This document shows positions 963 through 45,110 of a stretch of DNA of 64,000 nt, in pieces. Each line of letters starts with the position of its first letter. Position 1 is the stretch's first letter. The position numbers and the translations under genes are program-made. The notes beneath the pieces were generated by a model. That model did no database searches. It worked only from the letters and a program-made list of their open reading frames with translations, and was not told where the DNA came from. The stretch comes from Mytilus edulis (Eukaryota): assembly GCF_963676685.1 (NCBI RefSeq), contig NC_092355.1:43958001-44022000 (forward strand), given 5' to 3'.

Positions 963-1006
963 GCACCAGATGCACATTTCGACAAAACATGTCTCTTCAG
1001 TGATGC
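963..1006 (-). ncRNA. Type I hammerhead ribozyme (intact), family A
   Basis: Minus strand reads GCAUCA-CUGAAGA-GACA(UGUUU)UGUC-GAAA-UGUGC-AUC^-UGGUGC. The catalytic core is complete, with stem I (GCAUCA/UGGUGC), stem II, a short stem III and an NUH site. Confidence 0.85.
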
Positions 1007-6989: not shown

Positions 6990-9900
6990 AACCCAATCAT
7001 TTAACAATGTCCATATCAGCTTCCAGAACCAAACACAGTTTTCCTATTGATCTGGTCAATACAGTAGAAGCAGTGTTGACCTTCGCTACACGCACTGTTT
7101 CAAATTTGTCCGTAATGACTTCCAAGACGCGTCCCATTGTCCATGAATTTCTCGGAGTGTTTTCAACAATAAAAACAAGATCATTGATTTTAAGATTTCT
7201 TTCCTTCTTGTTCCATTTGGTTCTCTGATTTAATAAAGGAAGCTATTCTTTTGTCCATCGATTCCAGAACAAGTCTGACAAATATTGTACTTTTCGCCAC
7301 CTTCTACGAACACAATTGTCGGATTTATCAAATGTCCCTGGAGGAGCGCTTTCTCCTGAACGAAGAAGCAGAAGATCATTTGGCGTTAACACATTCAAGT
7401 CATTCACACTGTTAGGTACTTCTGTGATAGGACGACCATTTAGTATAGCTTCAACTTCACAAAATCATGTTTGCAAGTTTTCATCATTCAAACGCAACTT
7501 TTGCTCCTGCAAAATAGAATACAAAACCTTTCTTACAGATCGAATGAGTCTCTCCCATACTCCACCAAAATAAGATGCTGCTGGAGGATTAAATTTCCAG
7601 TCGATGCCCTTTTGAAGCATAAAATTGTCAATCTGATTCAGATTCCATTTAACAATTTCAGCTTTAAGTTCTCTTTGCGCACCTACGAGATTTGTTCCAT
7701 TGTCCGATCGAATAATTTTGGGTACTCCTCTGCGTGCAATGAATCGCCGGATTGCATTAATGCAAGAACTGGTGTCTAGGGAATCGGCTACTTCCAAATG
7801 TACTGCTCTTATTTTGAGACATGTGAATATCACGCCGTAACGTTTAAGAGTACACCTTCTCTGTTTAATTGCAAAAGGTCCAAAGTAATCCATACCAACG
7901 ATTGTAAACGGTGCAGTATCTTGAGTCACCCTTTCGCTGGGCAAATTCGTCATTTTCTGTTGCATGATGGGTGCTTGATATTTTCTACATATGACACATT
8001 TAGAGACAATATTCTTGATTATACCGTTAGCACCTATGATCCAATACTTTTGTCTGAGTTCGGTCAAAATAGCATTTCCCCTAAATGTCCGATCGATCTA
8101 TGAATTCCTTGTATAATTGAATATGATATTGTAGATTGTTTTGGCAGTATGATTGGATGCTTTGATGTTTCGGTTAGATTTGATCTTGCTAATCTCCCAC
8201 CAACTCGTAATATTCCATTTTCGTCAATATATGAGTTAAGTTTAAACAGTCTTGATGTTCGCTTAACATTCAACTTAGCTTTTAATCGCTGTACTTCATC
8301 ATCGAAATGTTGGTTTTGAACAAAACGAATACTAGTAATTTCTGCGTTGTGTATATCCTGTACTTTTTGATTCAGAGTTTTGACTAGTTCCTTCGATTCA
8401 TTTAGTCGCTTGGATTTTGCTTGTGTAGGTAACTTATCTTCATTCTCATTTGCTAAGTCGTTTTTTCTTCGGGTGGTTTGCTTAAAGTTGTTTACGGCCT
8501 TCAACAACCAAGCTACAATTCTTTTCAACTTGTCAAAGTCAGAACATCGAGAAATCAAGGTTTCAAAACTGTTAAATTCATCATAATCATCGTCCACAAT
8601 TGATGCATTAACCACTGATTTTCGATTGACTTTCGAGTCATTATCTGGAAATTTCAAGTCCATCCATACTTGTGGCCATTCACATTCTGGTAACCACAAA
8701 TAATCTGGTCCCCTGATCCATTGAGGATTTTGTTGAAATTTCAAAATAGTCATTCCACGAGAAGCAAAGTTAGGTGGATTTTGCTTCGTATTTACATTAT
8801 TCCACTGTGCATTGTCGGTAGCTTCATGTATTAAAGCAAGACAATTTGCAACAAACTTATGATATCTTGAATTTCTGTTGAAAATATATCGCAGCACTGT
8901 CATACTATCTGTCCAAAAGAACACTTTATCGATGTTGTAATTCAACTCTTGCAAAATAACTTTGCTCAATCGAACTACTCTTGCTGCAGCAGTTAATTCC
9001 ATTCTAGGCACGGTAATTGTTTTCAGAGGCGCAACTCTTAATTTCCCAAGAACAAATGTGTAATGAATCCTCCCAGTTTTATCAATTAAACGAAGATAGA
9101 AAACCATGCCATAACCGATATCACTGGCATCCGAGAAACAATGAATCTGTGTTGACATTACATTTTCAAAATTTGGCGGCTTGTAACATCTGTCAATCTT
9201 AACATTATGCAACTCGTTCAACTGATTCAACCAACTGATCCATTTTTTCTCATCTGTCTCATTAATTTCTTCATCCCAATCAACTTGTTGTTTGCATAAA
9301 TTTTGAAGAATTGACCTTGAGTACAAAAGGAGATGCGATTCCTAACGGATCGTACACAGAACTTACAACTGATAATATTCCTCGCTTAGTATGAGGATGA
9401 TCATTGGTATTTATTTTAAATCCAAATACGTCTCTATCGATGTACCAAGATACTCCTAGCGCTTGTCCAACGGATGATTCGTTCTCAAAATCAAGCTGAT
9501 TAGTGTATTTTGTGCGACTCTTGTCTAGTATTGATTTTACTACAGTTGAACTCGTGCTTGTCCACTTTGTCATATTAAAGCCTCCTTTTGTGCAAAGAGA
9601 TCAAACACCATCTACTAACGATATTGCCTTTTCGTCTGATTCGGTCGATACTAAACAATCGTCTACATATATATTGTTCAAAATTGTTTCTGCAACTTGT
9701 GGCTCAAATTGGTTTCTATAGTTCTGTGCAGTTTGTCTCAACGCAAAATTACAAACACTTGGAGAAGATGCAGCTCCAAAAATATGAACGGTCATCCTGT
9801 ATACTTCTGGTTCGCCGTTCATGTCTTCATTTGGCCACCATAAAAATCGCAATAAGTTTCTATCTTTGAGTGGAACTTTAACTTGGTAGAACATACTTTC

Positions 9901-10272
9901 TATGTCACCTTGTAACGCAACTTTTTCAGTACGGAATCGTAAAAGTACTCCTATCAAATTATTAGCAAGGTCTGGTCCTTGCAATAACAATGCATTCAAC
10001 GAGACTCCCATGTACGATGCAGAACAATCAAATACTACTCTAATCTTGTTCGGTTTTTTGTTGTGATAAATTCCGTGGTGAGGAATGTACCACACTCTTC
10101 CGTCATCTTGGTTCAACTCAGTTATTGGTACCTTTTCAGCAAACCCTTTCGAGAAAAGATTGTTCATAAAGGAAACGTAGTCGTCCTTAAACTTCTGATT
10201 CTTTGTCATCTTGTTTCTAAGTCCTTTAAGACGATTTTTTTTTTCTAAGAACAACACTTCTCCACCTATCAA
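6990..10272 (-). pseudogene. pol: BEL/Pao pol remnant (RT, RNase H, integrase)
   Basis: RT motifs WYIPHH, KIRVVFDCSA, LLQGPDL, FGAASSP and IYVDD. RNase H motifs HCFSDAS and FWTDS. Integrase motifs GMDYFGP, IRSDNGTN and GGVWERLI. Split by frameshifts and stops. Confidence 0.92.
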
Positions 10273-11701
10273 GAAGTTGAAACGGCAATTTACACATGAG
10301 TCACTTTATATTTTCTGAGAACCCTAGGATACGTAAAGCGTTAATACTATGTGCTACATTTTCACACTCTATTAGAAAAAGTGAAAACTCATCAAAACCT
10401 TTCGAATCACCTGCTTTCAGTGTTGGCCATTCAGGGGCTTTCTTAATGAAGGCATTAGCTATAACCTCACTGTTGCCATATCTTTCTCAAACTGTTCCAT
10501 TGCGGCTCGATAAGCATATTCACCACTTAAATGACTGAAGCCGGACACTACTTTGTGTGCTTCTCCAAAAGTAAATTGTTCTAGATAGTTCATCTTTTCA
10601 TCTTCTGTATCACTGTTTTGTACTATTTTAACTGTGAATTGTCTCACAAACTTTCTAAATTCTAATGGGTCACCTGAGAACTTTTTAATTTCTGGCATAG
10701 GTTTTCTCAAATTTTTACAATTGCAGTAATGGTTTCTAAATTGTTGTTCTGATCTGTAGGTCTAGAATCTTGTCTATTAGTTGTAGTTGTGATATATTCT
10801 TTCTTTTCGGTTATTGGACTTTTGTAATAAGTAGAACTTAAAGTGGCTGTACCGATATTTGTAGTGCCTTTATTTGTTGACCTTTCCACTTTCTGAACTT
10901 TCGGTTCAAAATGTGGTGCATGCGGATTTAAATTAACTTTAGCAAATTTATCTTGTTTTTGTTCTTTAACAATATCTTACTACGTATGCTTTGTGTTTCT
11001 GATTTTACGTTTTCTAACAGTTCATACTTGTTTAATATATTTGTCTTAGCATCTGATACAGCAATTCCTGTTGATAAATCTAATTCTTCTTCATCCATCT
11101 GAATATTGATTTTTGCCAATTCTAACAATCTCTTCTTTTTCAAAGCTTCCTTCTTTAATTCTAATTCGACTCTTTGTTGTTCTTCGGCTAGCTTTTTTGA
11201 TGATATGTTACTTAATATAGAGGAACGACTGATATGTGTGCTTCTTTGGTCACTATGATGCGACGCAGGACCTTGACGGCTAGTATAATGGTCACCTCTA
11301 TGACTAGAACTTGTCTGGCTCTGAGTATCAGAAAAGTACTTTTCAATTGTCCTTTTGAAATCACATAAAAACGCTACTCTGTCTTCATATATATAAATGT
11401 ACTCTTCCTTCTCTTGTTCCCTTATTCTTGCCATAAAGTTCTGATGTAGCTCCAAATAATGTTCATATTTATCTATCCATAGTGAAAATGTACTTCTTAT
11501 GACTTCAAATGGAGCATTTTTTTCTACGAATGACAAAATGTTTTCACATAGTCTCTTTATAGCCTCAAACATGTCATCGATTGTTTTCTTTTCATATAAT
11601 TTACCCTTTTCTGTAAAGGTTCTTTTTCTTGCAGACGCTCAGTCTAAATCTTCCTCCATGTCTGTCTGTTCTTCACCAAGTTCAATAGCTTCTATATCCA
11701 T
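10255..11701 (-). pseudogene. gag: BEL/Pao gag remnant
   Basis: ATG at 11701 (MDIEAIELG...RKRTFTEKGK), a coiled-coil region, then the motif PEIKKFSGDPLEF...KMNYLEQF typical of Pao gag. Contains stops and frameshifts. Confidence 0.8.
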
Positions 11702-11721: not shown

Positions 11722-14700
11722 TAGTCCGGCCGATTGGTGCAGATATAGGACAGAATTGCTCACTTGATGAGGAAAGCATGAAACTTTGCACAGTAGTTTT
11801 TGGTCATATACCCTTTGATTTCAGCTATGGACCCACTCTGAAAAATCCAATATGGCTGCCATATTCAAGATGGCGGAATAACGTTAAAAATAGCAAGAAT
11901 TTCCGCAAGGTATTCTATTTAATTACGGAAATTAAAGTAATGATTATTTAAAATGATCTTCATGTTTTTGAATTTGTTATCAATTAATTTTAAAATATAA
12001 AAAAAAAAAATTAGTTCTTTATATAACGCATACATTTGCAAATATGGCTGCATATACAAAAACAAATAGTGAAATTCAAAATGTTAATCAATATGTTACA
12101 TGTTATTGTAATTGTTCTGTAAACGCTTTCAGTTTTAATGATTGGAATGAAATATGTTGAAGCGAGTCTATTGAACGTTAATATAGGTAGGTTAAATGTG
12201 GTGGAATATTATGTAACTTATCTGAACTTTAAGGCAGTGCCGAGGGCACTTTGTCTCGTGTCTCTTCAATACCACGTCTTACGGCACTTATCGCGTTTTC
12301 ATCTGCCGTACCCACTACATCGTCAAACTATTCTATTTAATCAATAGGCGTACCTTTCTTCAGGCGCATTAGACGATTGCCATCATTTAAAATAGTTAAG
12401 GGGCAACTATTTCCTTTTCCAACTACATGCGAAACCAGTTCGCAACTAGTCAGCGAGCATGGTCCTAAAATGCACTCCTGGGTAGCACTTTTTTTAGTTT
12501 AAACGGTAACAGTCATTTCTGAGTGATGGTTCGTTTTATGCAAATTTGCTGAGTTTAAATCACGTTTCCACTGTTAACAAATGCCGCATTTTTCACTTTA
12601 ATGTTGATGCTGAGTGTGGGAGTACTCAGATTTATCACTGCGCTCAGTGTGTCCAAAATATCTAGCATAACATCGTATGTTAAAATGGCTCTTAACACAC
12701 ATCTTATTTTATGTTTACTCTATCAATGTCGAGAGTCGTTCTTTATAATCTTCTCAATAACAAGCTGTTCTCCCAAACCATGTAGCGTAACGGTCTCCAA
12801 ATCTCCATTATCTGCCGGAATTAATTTCTCATTCACTAATGTTATCATTGCAGCAGTGTCCACAATCATGCTCAATTTCTGGTCATGTATAGTACCTTGT
12901 ACTGCTAAGCTCTTTCAGATGGTTCGTCTGATGACAATATAGGAGGGGTTGCGCTTTGATCTAATCTATATCCTGGTGAAGTTAATTGACCGTTGTCTGA
13001 AATAATCAGGATTTCTGGAGTTTGTCCGTGGAGATGCTAACCGTTGTCCTTAAGGACTTTATTATCCCTGTCTTAGTGGGGGTGTTGCTGGTCGATGTGC
13101 ATTAAACTTGGGTGTATTTCTATCTGGCGATCTACCGCGATTGTATTGCTCAGGAGATTTACCTCGTGTATATTGATCAGGTGATCTTCCATGATTATTT
13201 GATCAGAAGGAACAAGGTTATATTGATAGGCTAATCCACGGGTATGCTGATTAGTTGAAAGCATAACATCAGCTAGTTTTGTGAGAATTTGTGTGAGTTA
13301 ATGCCCCTCATTTTCCAGAGGACTACTGATATTTCCTTTATCGGTAGGTGATACTGCACCGTCAGTAAAGTAGACTTGCCGATGGCCATAATTGGCACTT
13401 TTTGATCCATATATCGCCATCTGGTTGGCTTTTGAGGTTTTCAATTGTTTTAACGCCTTGTTGAATATTTCTAGGTTCCTCTCTATTATATGCCTTGCAG
13501 ACTCTTTGTCTTTTAAATTACATCTTTGAAGGAATGCTTCGATTCCAATCTGGTTTGATCGTCTTCCTTGTTGAAGCGCTGCTCTGCTCCAATACTTTTC
13601 TTTTGGCCTTTGAATCATCATCTGTGTTCACCTTGCTAGAGTACCCAAAGCCAACATCGGCCTGACAATCTGGGAGCCTACACACATTGTTCCTGTTTTC
13701 CCATTGTCATCTACCGGCAGTTCGTTCAAATTGGTAAATGAACGCCTTCCAATACAAGGATCCTCTTCAATTGAGTATTTGCATTTTTTGGGAGCTGTAG
13801 GCTTCGGTTCCGGTCTCTTGCACCGAGATTTATTGCCATCGACTATATTCTCTCTCGAATGAAGTGTCTGAAGACGAGCTGTTGCCACACTCTTTTGGTT
13901 TCATCTGCCCTTTCCTGGATCGGTCAGTGGAGTCAGCTTGCTGTTATGGAAAGTCTGTTAGAGATTCAGGAGCTGACTAGGTTGTCATAAGTGGAGTGAT
14001 AAATTTGGGAGGAGGATTTGCCATTGACTCGACGGAGATGATACCGTAAGTAGGCACTGCAGTCAGTATTGGAGATGCCAGTTGATGCCAGTTGTTGGAA
14101 GGTACCCTGCTGTTTAAATACACTTTTGAATTGAACTGTGTCTCCTTCATCAGTTTTTGTCAGCTTGTCCATCCGTCTCACCACAACATTGACTATCTTA
14201 TTGGTCTGACCATCAATTCCGCCAAGCAATTACCACTAGCCTTGTGGTCTATCCTGTCTACAAACTGCTAACGTTACTGAGATATTGCTGTTTGTTATTA
14301 ATATTCATTGCCTCTTTCTGTTCAGCTTGCGTCGTAAGGAGACCAACATATATTTTATCAATTGGCGCTTCGCTCTGTTTTATATTGCGGTTAGTCTCAG
14401 CTCTTCTTTGAACATTATATTTCCTAATAGTCACTTCTTTGTTGTCCTCTGTTAAAGAGTCTTCTATTGTGGGTTTGTCAATGTCCTAAAGTGATTCAGT
14501 TTCTGGCATTTAAATGTTCTTGTCCTTGTTGTCCTCAACTCCTGCCATTTCACTGATATGTGTTAAATTTTAAATGATTCTCAATTCACAGTTTAATATC
14601 TCAAATTGCAAATTATTGCGACCTAAGAAATAAAATAGGCACTGAATATTTTTGGGGGCAGATTAATTCCAAATCACAGCTTTTATGTGTGACCCAAGAC

Positions 14701-15190
14701 AACAAATAGTGCAGCTTTTAATGAAAGCTACTATTGCAGCTTTTTATGAAAGCTACTACTTTGTGTATGAAATGACAAGCCAGGCAAAATCAAAAAGGGC
14801 AGAAATGGGACAAAGACTTAATGACATTATACATCAATAAAATGCTTAAATTCAGGTCAATAATGAATATTTGCTTATTTTTCAAGGCGGTCATTTTGAA
14901 AATAGCCGCCATTTTGAATTTCAAAGATAGATCAAAACAAAATCTTGCAAAATACACCAATACATTCAAATTTGTTGATTTTTGTGCTTCCAGCATCAAA
15001 TCCACTGTGGCTCGTGCAATACTGGAAAATATTTTAAAATGTATGGCAGCCATCTTGAAATAAGCCGCCATATTGAATGTTGAGGGTGGGTCCATAGCTA
15101 ATATTGCTTAGTACACAAAAATGTACCATCATGCAAAATTTGGTGCTTTCCTCAATATTTGAGCAATTTTTTCACCGATCGGCCGGACTA
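11722..15190. mobile_element. Non-autonomous TIR DNA transposon, Academ-like, copy 1
   Basis: Termini TAGTCCGGCCGATTGGTG ... CACCGATCGGCCGGACTA, with long imperfect subterminal inverted arms rich in aanatggcngcc motifs. The dimer as a whole is flanked by a TTA duplication (11719-11721, 18658-18660). TAG..CTA ends with a 3-bp TSD fit Academ. Confidence 0.75.
12720..14560 (-). pseudogene. Captured Gypsy-type gag-protease fragment (copy 1)
   Basis: Minus strand gives gag-like IEAFLQRCNLKDKESARHIIERN...KALKQLKTS and aspartic protease SLAVQGTIHDQKLSMIVDTAAMITLVN (~12835-12912). No RT follows. Confidence 0.7.
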
Positions 15191-18100
15191 GTCCGGCCGA
15201 TTGGTGCAGATATAGGACAGAATTGCTCACTTGATGAGGAAAGCATGAAACTTTGCACAGTAGTTTTTGGTCATATACCCTTTGATTTCAGCTATGGACC
15301 CACTCTGAAAAATCCAATATGGCTGCCATATTCAAGATGGCGGAATAACGTTAAAAATAGCAAGAATTTCCGCAAGGTATTCTATTTAATTACGGAAATT
15401 AAAGTAATGATTATTTAAAATGATCTTCATGTTTTTGAATTTGTTATCAATTAATTTTAAAATATAAAAAAAAAAAATTAGTTCTTTATATAACGCATAC
15501 ATTTGCAAATATGGCTGCATATACAAAAACAAATAGTGAAATTCAAAATGTTAATCAATATGTTACATGTTATTGTAATTGTTCTGTAAACGCTTTCAGT
15601 TTTAATGATTGGAATGAAATATGTTGAAGCGAGTCTATTGAACGTTAATATAGGTAGGTTAAATGTGGTGGAATATTATGTAACTTATCTGAACTTTAAG
15701 GCAGTGCCGAGGGCACTTTGTCTCGTGTCTCTTCAATACCACGTCTTACGGCACTTATCGCGTTTTCATCTGCCGTACCCACTACATCGTCAAACTATTC
15801 TATTTAATCAATAGGCGTACCTTTCTTCAGGCGCATTAGACGATTGCCATCATTTAAAATAGTTAAGGGGCAACTATTTCCTTTTCCAACTACATGCGAA
15901 ACCAGTTCGCAACTAGTCAGCGAGCATGGTCCTAAAATGCACTCCTGGGTAGCACTTTTTTTAGTTTAAACGGTAACAGTCATTTCTGAGTGATGGTTCG
16001 TTTTATGCAAATTTGCTGAGTTTAAATCACGTTTCCACTGTTAACAAATGCCGCATTTTTCACTTTAATGTTGATGCTGAGTGTGGGAGTACTCAGATTT
16101 ATCACTGCGCTCAGTGTGTCCAAAATATCTAGCATAACATCGTATGTTAAAATGGCTCTTAACACACATCTTATTTTATGTTTACTCTATCAATGTCGAG
16201 AGTCGTTCTTTATAATCTTCTCAATAACAAGCTGTTCTCCCAAACCATGTAGCGTAACGGTCTCCAAATCTCCATTATCTGCCGGAATTAATTTCTCATT
16301 CACTAATGTTATCATTGCAGCAGTGTCCACAATCATGCTCAATTTCTGGTCATGTATAGTACCTTGTACTGCTAAGCTCTTTCAGATGGTTCGTCTGATG
16401 ACAATATAGGAGGGGTTGCGCTTTGATCTAATCTATATCCTGGTGAAGTTAATTGACCGTTGTCTGAAATAATCAGGATTTCTGGAGTTTGTCCGTGGAG
16501 ATGCTAACCGTTGTCCTTAAGGACTTTATTATCCCTGTCTTAGTGGGGGTGTTGCTGGTCGATGTGCATTAAACTTGGGTGTATTTCTATCTGGCGATCT
16601 ACCGCGATTGTATTGCTCAGGAGATTTACCTCGTGTATATTGATCAGGTGATCTTCCATGATTATTTGATCAGAAGGAACAAGGTTATATTGATAGGCTA
16701 ATCCACGGGTATGCTGATTAGTTGAAAGCATAACATCAGCTAGTTTTGTGAGAATTTGTGTGAGTTAATGCCCCTCATTTTCCAGAGGACTACTGATATT
16801 TCCTTTATCGGTAGGTGATACTGCACCGTCAGTAAAGTAGACTTGCCGATGGCCATAATTGGCACTTTTTGATCCATATATCGCCATCTGGTTGGCTTTT
16901 GAGGTTTTCAATTGTTTTAACGCCTTGTTGAATATTTCTAGGTTCCTCTCTATTATATGCCTTGCAGACTCTTTGTCTTTTAAATTACATCTTTGAAGGA
17001 ATGCTTCGATTCCAATCTGGTTTGATCGTCTTCCTTGTTGAAGCGCTGCTCTGCTCCAATACTTTTCTTTTGGCCTTTGAATCATCATCTGTGTTCACCT
17101 TGCTAGAGTACCCAAAGCCAACATCGGCCTGACAATCTGGGAGCCTACACACATTGTTCCTGTTTTCCCATTGTCATCTACCGGCAGTTCGTTCAAATTG
17201 GTAAATGAACGCCTTCCAATACAAGGATCCTCTTCAATTGAGTATTTGCATTTTTTGGGAGCTGTAGGCTTCGGTTCCGGTCTCTTGCACCGAGATTTAT
17301 TGCCATCGACTATATTCTCTCTCGAATGAAGTGTCTGAAGACGAGCTGTTGCCACACTCTTTTGGTTTCATCTGCCCTTTCCTGGATCGGTCAGTGGAGT
17401 CAGCTTGCTGTTATGGAAAGTCTGTTAGAGATTCAGGAGCTGACTAGGTTGTCATAAGTGGAGTGATAAATTTGGGAGGAGGATTTGCCATTGACTCGAC
17501 GGAGATGATACCGTAAGTAGGCACTGCAGTCAGTATTGGAGATGCCAGTTGATGCCAGTTGTTGGAAGGTACCCTGCTGTTTAAATACACTTTTGAATTG
17601 AACTGTGTCTCCTTCATCAGTTTTTGTCAGCTTGTCCATCCGTCTCACCACAACATTGACTATCTTATTGGTCTGACCATCAATTCCGCCAAGCAATTAC
17701 CACTAGCCTTGTGGTCTATCCTGTCTACAAACTGCTAACGTTACTGAGATATTGCTGTTTGTTATTAATATTCATTGCCTCTTTCTGTTCAGCTTGCGTC
17801 GTAAGGAGACCAACATATATTTTATCAATTGGCGCTTCGCTCTGTTTTATATTGCGGTTAGTCTCAGCTCTTCTTTGAACATTATATTTCCTAATAGTCA
17901 CTTCTTTGTTGTCCTCTGTTAAAGAGTCTTCTATTGTGGGTTTGTCAATGTCCTAAAGTGATTCAGTTTCTGGCATTTAAATGTTCTTGTCCTTGTTGTC
18001 CTCAACTCCTGCCATTTCACTGATATGTGTTAAATTTTAAATGATTCTCAATTCACAGTTTAATATCTCAAATTGCAAATTATTGCGACCTAAGAAATAA

Positions 18101-18657
18101 AATAGGCACTGAATATTTTTGGGGGCAGATTAATTCCAAATCACAGCTTTTATGTGTGACCCAAGACAACAAATAGTGCAGCTTTTAATGAAAGCTACTA
18201 TTGCAGCTTTTTATGAAAGCTACTACTTTGTGTATGAAATGACAAGCCAGGCAAAATCAAAAAGGGCAGAAATGGGACAAAGACTTAATGACATTATACA
18301 TCAATAAAATGCTTAAATTCAGGTCAATAATGAATATTTGCTTATTTTTCAAGGCGGTCATTTTGAAAATAGCCGCCATTTTGAATTTCAAAGATAGATC
18401 AAAACAAAATCTTGCAAAATACACCAATACATTCAAATTTGTTGATTTTTGTGCTTCCAGCATCAAATCCACTGTGGCTCGTGCAATACTGGAAAATATT
18501 TTAAAATGTATGGCAGCCATCTTGAAATAAGCCGCCATATTGAATGTTGAGGGTGGGTCCATAGCTAATATTGCTTAGTACACAAAAATGTACCATCATG
18601 CAAAATTTGGTGCTTTCCTCAATATTTGAGCAATTTTTTCACCGATCGGCCGGACTA
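15189..18657. mobile_element. Academ-like element, copy 2 (head-to-tail tandem)
   Basis: Offset is exactly 3467 bp from copy 1 and all ORF-track translations are identical. Junction GGAC-TA-GTCC. Confidence 0.85.
16187..18027 (-). pseudogene. Captured Gypsy-type gag-protease fragment (copy 2)
   Basis: Duplicate of 12720-14560 at +3467. Confidence 0.7.
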
Positions 18658-41369: not shown

Positions 41370-42585
41370 TTGTCAGTATAAAAAGTTAAATGTAATCACT
41401 GAAAGCAAGTCTTAAATAATGGGTTTTCAAATTTTTCTTAAAAAGTTCGATTGAGTGTTCATGTCTTCTTAGATGGCTAGGCAAATTGTTCCAGAGGCTC
41501 GCAGTAGCTTTGTCGAAACGTCTTTCTCCATAGATTTTGGTGCGTTCACGAGGTTGTGTAAGCTGCATTGCATTTTCCGATCTAAGAGATCTTGACGGTT
41601 GATAGGCGCTAATGAGTTTCTCAAGATAGACGGGCGCTAGGCCATGCAGGATTTTTCAAAGTATACAAAAGAAGTTTATATTGTATTCGGTACTGCATCG
41701 GAATCCAATGAAGAGACACAAGAACTGGTGTTATATGATCATGTTTTTTGGTACGTGTAACGAGCCTGGCCGCTGTATTCTGTACTCGCTGTAACTTATT
41801 TACTAAACTGGCATTTACTCCATATAGCAGAGCGTTTCCGTAGTCAAGACGTGACGTGACAAGCGAGCAAACTAAAGTTTTACAGGCATCCTCGGTGATA
41901 TATTTCCGAATTCGACCAATTTTCCTGATTTGGAAATAGCACGACTTCGTGATGCCATTGACCTGCTTTTCCATGCTTAATGTTCTATCAAAATAGACAC
42001 CAAGATTTTTGACCACAGATGCATTGTTTACTATTGATCCATCAAATAACAGATGACAATTCGAAAATTCCTTTACACGAGTTTCTGGTGAAAATAAGAT
42101 CAGTTCCGTTTTGTCTTGGTTCAGTTTCAGCATGTTTAAGCACATCCATTTACTAATGTCAGCCAAACAAGTCTCTAGACGTAAAGATATGTTGTGCTAA
42201 TTATCGAGTGGTTTGATTACTAGGTAGACTTGCGTGTCATCAGCATACCCATGATAGCTAAAGTTGTGTCGCCGACATATTTCACTGATCGGTTTGGCAA
42301 AAATACAATACAATCGGAGTCCCAAGACCGAACCTTGCGGAACGCCATATTTAATGTTTATTACATCTGACAATACGGAGCCAATTGCTACACGTTGAGT
42401 TCGACTTTCAAGATAGGATCTCATCCATGACAGCGCTGAGCCAGTTATTCCGTAAGAGTATTCTAACCGATTGATGAGGATGGGATGGTCGATAGTGTCG
42501 AATGCAGCGGATAGACCGAGCATAACAAGTACCGCACAACAGTTATTATCAAGTGCCAATGCTATATCATGGTGAACCCTTAGTT
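41370..42585 (-). mobile_element. 5'-truncated L2/CR1-group LINE (RT 3' half), intronic and antisense
   Basis: LSAAFDTIDH, GVPQGSVLG, YADDTQVY, LKLNQDKTE, LVTSRLDYGN, LQRVQNTAARL. Contains a stop and a frameshift. Confidence 0.9.
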
Positions 42586-43628
42586 GTTTTATTGGGAATC
42601 AAACCACATCTTCTAATTTTATATTGTGTAAGAAATACCAAGAAAACATTGAAGCACAAGAAATAAGCTGACAAAATAAAGATGGTTTAAATACATATAA
42701 ATCAGAAAATAATCAAAGCATAGACATACTGTTTCCTCGGAGTATCCTATGATCTCATGGTTGACGAGTTAAGGACTTTCATGCTAGATGAAACCTGCCA
42801 TATCATATCGTAACTGCAGTATCAGAGATTGACTTGAATGGCCTCCACAAAATTTAACAGGTTTTTTTTCTCAATTTGATTACATTTATTCGATTTAGAG
42901 GTTCTACGAGAACCACTTAGAGTGTTAGATACTTTGCTGTTTGTTATGACATCTTCCTGTAAAACCACACACATTGTTCCAAGAGTTCCATAGCGTTGAC
43001 AGTACTTGGTACTCGCCAGGCAGTTTATATTATCAAATTAAGTTAATCGACCTCATCCGATTATTCGAGACGGTGTACAGATATTTAACATAGCTATTTT
43101 GTCGAAACTATAGAAGTCGAGATGAGAATATCTTATACTCTTTCAAACAAGCCCAAACTTTGATACGATCCGACTTATCAGTTACAAAAGAGAAAAACAA
43201 CAATATCACATTTAGTTTGAATTTTTATTCTTGTTGTTTTCTATACACATTTTCTGTAAAAAAAAAAGTACCAAATATTATTTTTTCTTTTCCCACAAAA
43301 AATCTTTAGTGTAGATCTTTCATCCTTAATACTGTCTTGTTCGCATTGTTCTGATTTTCTCCTCTTAAAACGAGATCTTAAATACCTTACTTAATCGTAT
43401 CGTTCTCTGCGAGCACACTGATAAATCAAGTCGTGTCAGGGAGCGCGCCTTATAAAATGTGTACATGTTTAGTAGTCTGATTGAACTGTTTATAGTTACC
43501 TTTTTTGTATTTGGAGTCGTTGTGTACATTTTTTTAGGCGTTTATATAATTTATTTATTGTGTACATGTATCGTTACTCGTAACGATCCAGCGCCCTCGC
43601 GGGGAAAATCGTTGACTATTATTCAGAC

Positions 43629-43632
<4 letters not shown>

Positions 43633-43674
<42 letters not shown>
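43633..43674. repeat. (TA)n microsatellite
   Basis: About 20 TA units. Confidence 0.95.
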
Positions 43675-43677
<3 letters not shown>

Positions 43678-44473
43678 GAGTCTAAATTGAAAACTACGTT
43701 CAAACTTATGATTGCGTAGGATAAGAACCGCAACTTTTATACGTGTGCATGTAAAACAAATTTCGTTGTAGAAGGGTCTAAATACAGCACAAACAACATT
43801 TTCCAAAAGACCAAAAAAGTGAAAAAGTATATTTAAACAAAACGCATTTGACTAACAGGTCGAACAACTGATGTTCTTAAACCCTGCTGACTGCCATTGG
43901 CGATTGCCAACTAAAATTGATCACGAGATGTAACAAAATGGATCTTAATATAAATTTAATACTAAACAGAAAACGATAAACTTGTGGCCAAGATGTTATG
44001 CCACAAACACATTGTGTCAATATTTTGTTTGTACACCAGATCTAGATTTCGACAATAAATGTCTCTTCAGTGATGTTAGGGATCGAAACGGTATTTGGAA
44101 GGCCATATAATTTACCCTCAATTTCAGATAGACTCTTGAATTTTAAGAGTCAATATAGGATGAACGGATCATATAAACCGGAGGGAAAATATGATACAAG
44201 CCCAAACGAAAAAATATAAACGAGTCTAAATTGAAAACTACGTTCAAACCTATGATTGCATTGGATAAAAACCGCAATTTTTATACGTGTGCATGTAAAA
44301 CAAATTTCGTTTTAGAAAGGTCTAAATACAGCACAAACAACATTTTCCAAAAGACCAAAAAAGTGAAAAAGTATATTTAAACAAAACGCATTTGACTAAC
44401 AGGTCGAACAACTGATGTTCTTAAACCCTGCTGACTGCCATTGGCGATTGCCAACTAAAATTGATCACGAGAT
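43670..44473 (-). mobile_element. 1.5-mer of a 544-bp hammerhead-bearing unit (family C), inserted in (TA)n
   Basis: 43670-43929 is repeated at 44214-44473 (offset 544). The hammerhead lies in the unique middle part and TA-rich sequence lies on both sides. Confidence 0.75.
44033..44076 (-). ncRNA. Type I hammerhead ribozyme (intact), family C
   Basis: ACAUCA-CUGAAGA-GACA(UUUAU)UGUC-GAAA-UCUAG-AUC^-UGGUGU. The stem III region AUCUAGAU is palindromic. Confidence 0.88.
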
Positions 44474-45110
44474 AGATATATAATTATATATATTTCACCT
44501 TTCACAGCTAATGAAAATTAGAGTGTTTTAGTTTACCATATGGTGTGAATATGTGTTTTTCATTATAAAAACGGACTTTTTTTTGTTTTTTCTGCTGTGC
44601 ATATACAGATTTTATGTCATAGATGGATATCCTGTATCTTTTGTTTTTATAATAACATCATGTTAGAAAGAGATAAGTGTTGGTACAACACAGAACGTCG
44701 GATCTCGTCAATTTATTTATTCCAATCACATCTTCTGTTTTGGTATACAACATGTGATAGAGACTTATTTCTCCTGGTGTCAACTTAAAAAAGATCTTTG
44801 CTTTCTGTTGAATTGGGAAATTTAATATATTTTCCCATTTGTAAAGGGTTTTTTTTATGAGAAAACGGCCTTTTGAAGAGCAAGATAGATGTATTGCGGT
44901 CGGAAATGCAGGCCAAAGTAAAAAAAACGAAACAGAATAAGCCGCTGGGAACACTGATTGTGACGACGAGGTTTCGTAATGAAAACGGCGCTATGCTACC
45001 AGTTTCCAAAACTTGTAACGTTCATAAACTGTCTTAATAGCAAAGACGATGGATGAAGTTCTAATTTTAATATCATTTCATTTTCTTTTTTTTTTTTTTG
45101 TATGCTTCAG

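What the first reader, a model, noticed from the sequence alone, without database searches (positions are those of the whole stretch)
43633..44495. 544-bp hammerhead unit integrated as a 1.5-mer into a (TA)n tract: footprint of a circular template
Seen: ~260 bp (43670-43929) recurs 544 bp downstream with only a few substitutions, one intact hammerhead lies in the middle, and TA-repeat sequence lies on both flanks. Outside the ribozyme this unit shows no evident similarity to families A and B, and it is longer than they are. Inference: a greater-than-unit-length, permuted insertion whose ends do not coincide with the cleavage site is what reverse transcription around a 544-nt circular RNA (or PLE-style partial tandem copying), primed at a microsatellite, would leave. 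It may be an undescribed retrozyme size class.
Basis: partly seen in the sequence, partly recalled or inferred. Interest (0 to 1): 0.7.

Follow-up and report, generated by a model that had tools for sequence, protein, structure and literature searches.

The report
Ribozyme repeat hitchhiking on Penelope enzymes
This is one of thousands of copies of a non-coding 544-base repeat with a predicted self-cutting RNA motif, a new family of a known kind of animal jumping element, and its copies mostly begin at one fixed point in TA repeats and run on past one unit, which points to a Penelope-type enzyme likely copying it from a probably circular RNA.

Summary
In detail: a 260-bp direct repeat (7 substitutions) 544 bp apart, one intact type I hammerhead on the minus strand, TA on both flanks. 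It is one copy of a dispersed family (745 exact ribozyme matches; about 2,500 candidate places) in a 1.37-Gb genome, probably a mussel. Ends do not permute freely: 37 of 58 end-unbiased insertions start within 8 nt of one point, 363 nt downstream of the cleavage site, next to (TA)n. The other end is scattered and runs through the cleavage site. Not a TRIM, not a local duplication. Neighbouring units share locus-private variants (38 of 229, control 5 of 3809), so tandems often descend from one template, as a circle predicts. A young tandem source or later homogenisation is not excluded. Intact Neptune/Nematis-type Penelope elements here also end at TTAGAC beside TA, and one copy is fused head-to-head to such an element: the likely helper. 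The hammerhead strand is probably expressed; no circle was shown. Verdict: a new family of metazoan non-LTR retrozyme, not a new size class (51-972 bp reported). The scan noted the same kind of footprint earlier in other genomes.

The parts
43633..43674 (.). (TA)21 target tract at the fixed end; its last 5-6 bases overlap the unit's own ATATA (likely priming microhomology)
   Evidence: unit position 6 is A in 97 of 100 internal junctions but A/T/C in 47/42/11 of 100 TA-anchored ends
43676..44473 (-). the insertion, about 1.47 units; sense (hammerhead) strand is minus, fixed 3' end at about 43676, truncated 5' end at 44473
43670..44213 (-). one full 544-nt unit (family period 518-574 nt, mostly 542-553); no ORF of 120 aa or more
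44214..44473 (-). partial second unit (unit positions 1-260), 7 substitutions from the first
44033..44076 (-). type I hammerhead ribozyme motif with short palindromic stem III (predicted to work as a dimer)
   Evidence: sequence; centre of stem III is TA or CG, both palindromic, in 133 of 148 copies; position 17 is C or A in 150 of 150
44038..44039 (-). predicted self-cleavage site (after AUC)
   Evidence: hammerhead consensus (established knowledge); cleavage not tested
43680..43705 (-). main start signal candidate: predicted 11-bp hairpin whose 3' arm ends in TTTAGAC, about 4 nt upstream of the fixed 3' end
   Evidence: TTAGAC also closes the 3' ends of the 911-, 959- and 980-aa Penelope-like families
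43776..43800 (-). second TTTAGAC site, 96 nt upstream of the first; 22 of 26 columns like the 3' end of the 959-aa family; weak cluster of minor starts
   Evidence: 6 of 300 shuffles reach the score; 5 of 20 minor starts at unit 97-115, window chosen after looking
44474..44493 (.). imperfect TA run at the variable end (rest of the target)
   Evidence: TATA/ATAT within 14 nt of the variable end in 65 of 92 insertions against 617 of 3518 background windows
43560..43632 (+). 3' end of another TA-ended repeat whose TA tail received the insertion
   Evidence: related sequence flanks copies in L013, L119, L148, L166, L220

Best explanation
This is a 5'-truncated copy of a dispersed, non-coding 544-nt hammerhead repeat (a non-LTR retrozyme) that was likely pasted into a (TA)n tract by the endonuclease and reverse transcriptase of a Neptune/Nematis-type Penelope-like element, probably copying round a circular RNA from one fixed internal start. 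Steps: (1) arrays with two or more hammerheads are transcribed on the hammerhead strand (expression seen, strand inferred); (2) the ribozymes cut out unit-length RNA that a host ligase closes (inferred from other mussel retrozymes); (3) the helper nicks (TA)n, the TA end pairs with the unit's own UAUAU just downstream of a TTTAGAC hairpin, and synthesis starts there (fixed start shown, pairing inferred); (4) synthesis runs on through the cleavage site and past one unit and stops at a roughly constant rate, mean about 430 nt (shown), leaving 0.1- to 7-mers. This copy has one hammerhead, so it could not release a monomer on its own.
For: Family size: 2508 candidates, 745 exact 31-nt ribozyme matches and 361 exact TA-junction matches, reversed controls 0. 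Fixed start: 37 of 58 insertions picked only by the ribozyme start at unit 1-8, TA beside 32 of those 37. Variable end: 92 anchored insertions, median 356 nt, exponential fit not rejected (KS P 0.43), 44 pass the cleavage site, 25 exceed one unit, 12 pass two cleavage sites; 6 stops against 2.9 expected at the site, P 0.08. One template per insertion: rare variants shared 540 of 1368 against 35 expected; locus-private variants in both neighbours 38 of 229 against 5 of 3809 in random pairs; L205 has identical units; no first-versus-later unit differences in 544 columns except the junction base. Helper: intact 911-, 959- and 980-aa RT plus C-terminal GIY-YIG ORFs with a CX2-5CxxC linker end at TTAGAC beside TA; in L212 the variable end is joined without TA, head-to-head, to a 5'-truncated ORF of this type, with TA at both outer ends. 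RNA: runs X21 and X22 cover the whole unit, mostly on one strand (546 against 29 at 44124-44187 in X22), with zero depth on unique flanks; the dominant variant's 8 marks all occur in 2 of 174 genomic pieces, one of them a young insertion.
Against: No circle, cleavage or read pile-up at the cleavage site was seen. A circle's junction equals the genomic sequence, so short reads cannot show it. Shared variants also follow from a young homogeneous tandem source or from later gene conversion; in 1.x-mers only 4 of 53 private variants are shared and only 20 of 75 loci show any. 21 of 58 insertions start elsewhere, only 10 of them beside TA. Sequence likeness to a helper is short: best of seven families, 6 of 300 shuffles, not significant after correction; the hairpin is an energy prediction only. 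The hybrid evidence is one clean case among 476 ends; L069 and L292 have TA at the joint, and L241 is joined to a Naiad fragment. X23 shows a weaker strand bias without the dominant variant and X24 nearly even strands. In vitro, an anole Penelope element did not need hammerhead cleavage and started without homology to the target. The clade name rests on the linker motif, not on a tree.
Confidence: 0.6

Rival explanations
1. Same helper and same fixed internal start, but the template is a linear, uncleaved multimeric transcript of young tandem arrays, or the enzyme re-copies one linear RNA (Penelope-style partial tandem); the hammerhead is not needed for copying.
For: Arrays of 4-7 units exist. 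Autonomous elements here form partial tandems too. Hammerhead mutants did not affect insertion in vitro for an anole element; 8 of 9 Xenopus dimers did not cleave in vitro. No read ends at the cleavage site.
Against: Linear copying from a fixed start shortens arrays each round (12 of 92 keep two cleavage sites) and should pass on unit-to-unit differences, yet neighbours share private variants and no position-specific variants exist. The catalytic core and stem III palindrome are kept. Circles dominate for other mussel retrozymes.
Confidence: 0.27
2. The helper is another Penelope-like clade (Naiad, or the two-ORF 784/792-aa families), not the 911/959/980-aa type.
For: Naiads prefer (TA)n and are abundant in bivalves. 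The 784/792-aa families also end at TA. L069 is joined to a 792-aa arm and L241 to a Naiad fragment.
Against: The TTAGAC end motif is seen in the 911/959/980-aa families and not in the printed 784/792-aa ends; local alignments to the other families were at chance level.
Confidence: 0.08
3. The unit is the terminal repeat of an autonomous Penelope-like element not sampled here, and the copies are its truncated ends.
For: Xenopus retrozymes match Penelope terminal repeats. Sampling covered only about 180 of some thousands of loci.
Against: Unit follows unit directly in 117 adjacent pairs; no locus has an ORF inside the unit; 50 plus 46 Penelope loci contain the unit only as separate nested copies.
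Confidence: 0.04
4. A TRIM/LTR-like element with 260-bp terminal repeats, or a unique local duplication.
For: The single locus looks like repeat-spacer-repeat.
Against: The overlap length differs at nearly every locus (22 to over 500 nt) and multimers occur; thousands of dispersed copies.
Confidence: 0.01

Closest known systems
Metazoan non-LTR retrozymes, Mytilus galloprovincialis 350-390 bp families (Cervera and de la Pena 2020, PMC7229834; passages and sections 14 and 17 read, supplement unreadable)
   Same: Non-coding, AT-rich tandem unit with one type I hammerhead per unit; dispersed monomers and multimers; the ribozyme is 88% like that of the 350-bp family at window 964-1005; the paper proposes rolling reverse transcription of circles by Penelope-like enzymes.
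   Different: Unit 544-570 nt; no likeness to the 350-bp family outside the ribozyme within this window; targets (TA)n with a fixed start. Circles and cleavage were shown for those families, not for this one. Whether this family is among the paper's roughly 5000 ribozymes could not be checked.
Animal retrozymes as non-autonomous Penelope derivatives (Li, Clavereau, Pollet 2026, bioRxiv 10.64898/2026.07.22.740005; parts 1-3 of 5 read, supplements closed)
   Same: Unit length lies inside the reported 51-972 bp; co-occurs with Penelope-like elements.
   Different: That survey has no mollusc among the groups it names, and links retrozymes to terminal repeats by homology. Here no long homology was found, and the link rests on insertion ends, a short end motif and one hybrid.
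Neptune/Nematis-type and Naiad Penelope-like elements, and non-autonomous Chlamys such as MRC1 (Craig et al. 2021, PMC8557442; passages read)
   Same: 5' truncation, partial tandems, occasional inversions, (TA)n bias, fixed 3' end, non-autonomous multicopy head-to-tail insertions.
   Different: No ORF. Mostly single-armed (84 of 94 simple, 4 inverted) and one dominant start, whereas the 959-aa family uses two ends 92 nt apart about equally (13 and 15 of 37 hits).
Poseidon element of Anolis, internal initiation (Frangieh et al. 2024, PMC11167929; parts 1-2 of 4 read)
   Same: Reverse transcription starts inside the RNA, downstream of the hammerhead, at AT-rich targets.
   Different: There the start has no homology to the target and lies about 90 nt from the cleavage site; here a 5-6 nt TA microhomology lies at the start, 363 nt from the site.

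Membership tests
Metazoan non-LTR retrozyme | type I hammerhead in each unit | tested here: met
   core letters kept in about 98% of copies; stem III palindrome in 133 of 148; one motif per unit in arrays
Metazoan non-LTR retrozyme | dispersed tandem repeats with two or more consecutive hammerhead units at some loci | tested here: met
   arrays of 2-7 units; this locus itself has one hammerhead
Metazoan non-LTR retrozyme | non-coding, GC under 50%, no fixed LTR pair | tested here: met
   no ORF of 120 aa; AT-rich sequence; overlap length varies. PBS and PPT were not searched for
Metazoan non-LTR retrozyme | transcribed on the ribozyme strand | tested here: inconclusive
   strong one-strand excess in X21 and X22, weaker in X23, absent in X24; the strand call depends on the library protocol
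Metazoan non-LTR retrozyme | self-cleavage and accumulation as circular RNA | not testable with these tools
   needs cleavage assay, RNase R and northern blot; short reads showed no ends at the site
Non-autonomous Penelope-like element | fixed 3' end, variable 5' truncation, partial tandems, microsatellite target | tested here: met
Non-autonomous Penelope-like element | sequence shared with an autonomous family at the 3' end | tested here: inconclusive
   TTAGAC plus TA end motif and a 22 of 26 match, P about 0.02 before correcting for seven families
TRIM / LTR retrozyme | two fixed ends with terminal repeats of constant length | tested here: not met
   variable end spread over the whole unit

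The most novel reading that the evidence does not exclude
A Neptune-type reverse transcriptase docks on a short TTTAGAC hairpin in a covalently closed RNA, primes on (TA)n and rolls round it. Ribozyme and docking signal are swappable modules, so retrozymes with almost the same hammerhead in one genome ride different Penelope-like helpers, and one young variant of this family is being expressed and copied now.
Probability: 0.3. Interest if true: 0.7.

Novelty: new member of a known kind. Interest (0 to 1): 0.42.

Why it matters
A 2020 review states that animal retrozymes show no conserved motif that names their helper, and treats copying from circles as a model (PMC7761336). This family offers a defined start point, a candidate signal, intact young helper ORFs in the same genome and an expressed variant. 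With these, both open questions (which enzyme, and circle or line) can be tested in vitro. The element itself is an ordinary member of a known class.

Tried and rejected
Rfam scan of the window: 0 hits. The RT remnant at 41386-42598 looked like a possible partner but reads as a CR1/L2-type LINE (clade named from recalled motifs) and is not linked. Search for an autonomous element carrying the unit: none in 50 GIY-YIG loci, 46 further loci or the 56 census loci. Stop pile-up at the cleavage site, expected for cleaved linear templates: not significant. Position-specific variants, expected for a heterogeneous master dimer: none. Back-to-back two-start arms, suggested by earlier notes on other genomes: rare here, 4 inversions in 94. 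Whole-unit fold is not unusually stable (z -1.18). Logan contigs, including one 563-nt contig at depth 119 in X11, cannot show circularity or strand and were not used as evidence. Sequence look-up of earlier findings returned nothing. Paper searches showed no description of a 544-bp mussel family, but Repbase and Dfam could not be searched and the supplement of PMC7229834 could not be read, so it may already be catalogued.

Full report
Observation. A 260-nt direct repeat lies at 43670-43929 and 44214-44473, 544 nt apart, 97.3% identical without gaps. (TA)21 lies at 43633-43674 and a short imperfect TA run follows 44473. On the minus strand a type I hammerhead spans 44076-44033, with a 6-bp stem I, intact core, 4-bp stem II, a palindromic stem III and the AUC site at 44039/44038. 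Rfam finds nothing at gathering score and the local fold is unremarkable (z -0.24). Short palindromic stems III are typical of metazoan type I hammerheads that act as dimers (PMC4209133, passages). Among genomic copies the centre of the palindrome is CG in 74 and TA in 59 of 148, a two-sided change that may be one inherited event. Position 17 is C in 142 and A in 8 of 150. Core letters are 98% conserved against a mean of 95% and a median of 97% for the unit, which is weak evidence in so young a family.

Family. The genome has 1.37 Gb with 14 large contigs; a mussel is my inference. The middle of the unit gives 2508 candidates. An exact 31-nt ribozyme pattern occurs 745 times and an exact TA-junction pattern 361 times, with reversed controls 0. 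Copies differ from the column majority by 4.2% on average (157 pieces). Periods in arrays run from 518 to 574 nt. No ORF of 120 aa lies in the unit.

Ends. For a sample blind to the ends I took 56 of the 57 ribozyme clusters listed for contig C1 (the last was left out), giving 58 insertions. 37 start at unit positions 1-8, 20 elsewhere and 1 in an inverted piece; TA flanks 32 of the 37 and 10 of the other 21. This sample favours long copies because it requires the ribozyme. For the other end I took the first 100 listed of the 361 TA-anchored matches, dropped 6 that repeat one insertion inside a larger duplicated repeat and set aside 2 that ran off the fetched DNA. In the 92 left the median length is 356 nt, an exponential fit is not rejected (P 0.43), 44 pass the cleavage site, 25 exceed one unit and 12 pass two cleavage sites. 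Stops near the cleavage site number 6 against 2.9 expected (P 0.08). TA lies within 14 nt of the variable end in 65 of 92 against 617 of 3518 background windows. Of the 94, 84 are simple, 4 inverted and 6 rearranged. A mild excess of stops at unit 183-203 (12 against 4.5, best of many windows) falls in a predicted hairpin and is unexplained. Unit position 6 is A in 97 of 100 internal junctions but mixed at TA-anchored ends, so the true start is near 43676 and the unit's ATATA overlaps the target. The fixed end is the 3' end of the hammerhead strand, 363 nt downstream of the cleavage site. This is the footprint of Penelope-like elements: fixed 3' end, 5' truncation, partial tandems, microsatellite bias (PMC8557442, passages) and internal initiation (PMC11167929, parts 1-2 of 4). 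It excludes a TRIM and a local duplication, and it also excludes free permutation of both ends.

One template per insertion. Adjacent units differ by 3.3% against 6.2% between loci (80 pairs in 54 loci) and share 540 of 1368 rare variants against 35 expected; L205 has identical units. With variants seen in no other locus, 38 of 229 are in both neighbours (117 pairs, 75 loci; 20 loci show any) against 5 of 3809 in 1837 random pairs; for 1.x-mers the figure is 4 of 53. Arrays of three or more units count more than once. First and later units differ at none of 544 columns except the junction base. A circle predicts all this. A young homogeneous source array or later gene conversion would too, so the circle is favoured, not shown.

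Helper. A GIY-YIG search scored 150 of 858 candidates. Several families with intact ORFs end directly at (TA)n. The 911-, 959- and 980-aa families have RT, a CX2-5CxxC linker and a C-terminal endonuclease, the Neptune/Nematis layout (no tree was built). They end at TTAGAC followed within a few bases by TA; the 959-aa family uses two such sites 92 nt apart, in 13 and 15 of 37 hits. The 544-nt unit has exactly two TTAGAC, 96 nt apart: one just before the main start and one near 5 of the 20 minor starts (window chosen after looking). The best local match among seven families is 22 of 26 columns with the 959-aa end, reached by 6 of 300 shuffles, not significant after correction. A hairpin ending in this motif is predicted at the main site and in two other TA-ended repeats. 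Of 476 ends in 210 loci, 10 lie within 60 nt of Penelope coding DNA. In L212, from the blind sample, the variable end is joined without TA to a 5'-truncated ORF of this type in opposite orientation, and both outer ends lie at TA, as expected if one enzyme copied two RNAs from the two cut strands. An insertion with target deletion could give the same. L069 (792-aa family) and L292 (980-aa family) are similar but have TA at the joint, and L241 is joined to a Naiad fragment, which counts against a single helper. No ORF-bearing version of the unit was found.

RNA. Of 24 runs listed I laid 7. Raw reads of X21 and X22 (one study, about 6% of each run) cover the whole unit with a strong excess of first mates on plus, which in most stranded libraries means RNA of the hammerhead strand; unique flanks have zero depth. 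X23 of the same study shows a weaker bias and X24 of another study nearly none. In X21 and X22 one variant makes up most major-strand reads at its marks (426 of 492 at 44130 in X22; 159 of 217 at 44039 in X21, which gives an AUA site). All 8 marks tested occur together in 2 of 174 genomic pieces, one being L180, whose units differ by 0.5%. Reads are unphased and come from other individuals. No pile-up of read ends marks the cleavage site.

Comparison. Mussel retrozymes of 350-390 bp self-cleave and accumulate as circles, and the authors propose Penelope-like helpers (PMC7229834, passages and sections 14, 17; supplement unreadable, and it may list this ribozyme). A 2026 preprint reports units of 51-972 bp and links them to Penelope terminal repeats (parts 1-3 of 5; supplements closed). 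A review says no motif names the helper (PMC7761336, passages). My six searches showed no description of this family; repeat databases were not available. Earlier AI notes of this scan describe the same kind of footprint in other genomes and tie this genome's 350-390 bp families to Naiads. I used them as leads only and did not test the Naiad claim.

Verdict. A real, young, high-copy family and a new member of a known class. Mobilisation by a Penelope-like element is about 90% likely, the Neptune/Nematis-type helper about 75%, and a circular template about 60-65%; because these are not independent of one another and the circle is the weakest link, I put the whole explanation at 0.6. Interest 0.42.

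Noticed in passing
flanks of many loci, e.g. L106:2700-3150, L212:2330-2500, L222, L241: A very common TA-ended repeat with a tRNA-like segment (by eye) ends in TTTAGACGAGTTG then TATATA (93 hits). It may be a tRNA-bearing non-autonomous element using the same helper.
   Followed up: partly
L170 (G000:C2:73823660-73826660): The 544-nt unit is interrupted at position 171 by copies of the 350-bp ribozyme family spaced about 350 nt apart, and the arrangement repeats: a nested or chimeric array.
   Followed up: no
L281-L296: A very young 980-aa Penelope-like family with many identical copies; in inverted pairs one arm ends at the first TTAGAC site and the other reads on past it.
   Followed up: partly
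window 11722-18657: A 3467-bp tandem duplication at 100% identity beside a BEL/Pao LTR retrotransposon (ORFs 7465-11638); possibly an assembly artefact.
   Followed up: no
   Followed up: partly
window 41386-42598, minus strand: Broken LINE reverse transcriptase of CR1/L2 type, unrelated to the finding.
   Followed up: partly
L126, L127, L130, L162 and L143, L144, L185, L186: The same insertion with the same flanks at several places, so carried inside a larger mobile or duplicated sequence.
   Followed up: no
window 43852-43872 (unit 183-203): Mild excess of 5' truncation points inside a predicted hairpin of the sense RNA.
   Followed up: partly
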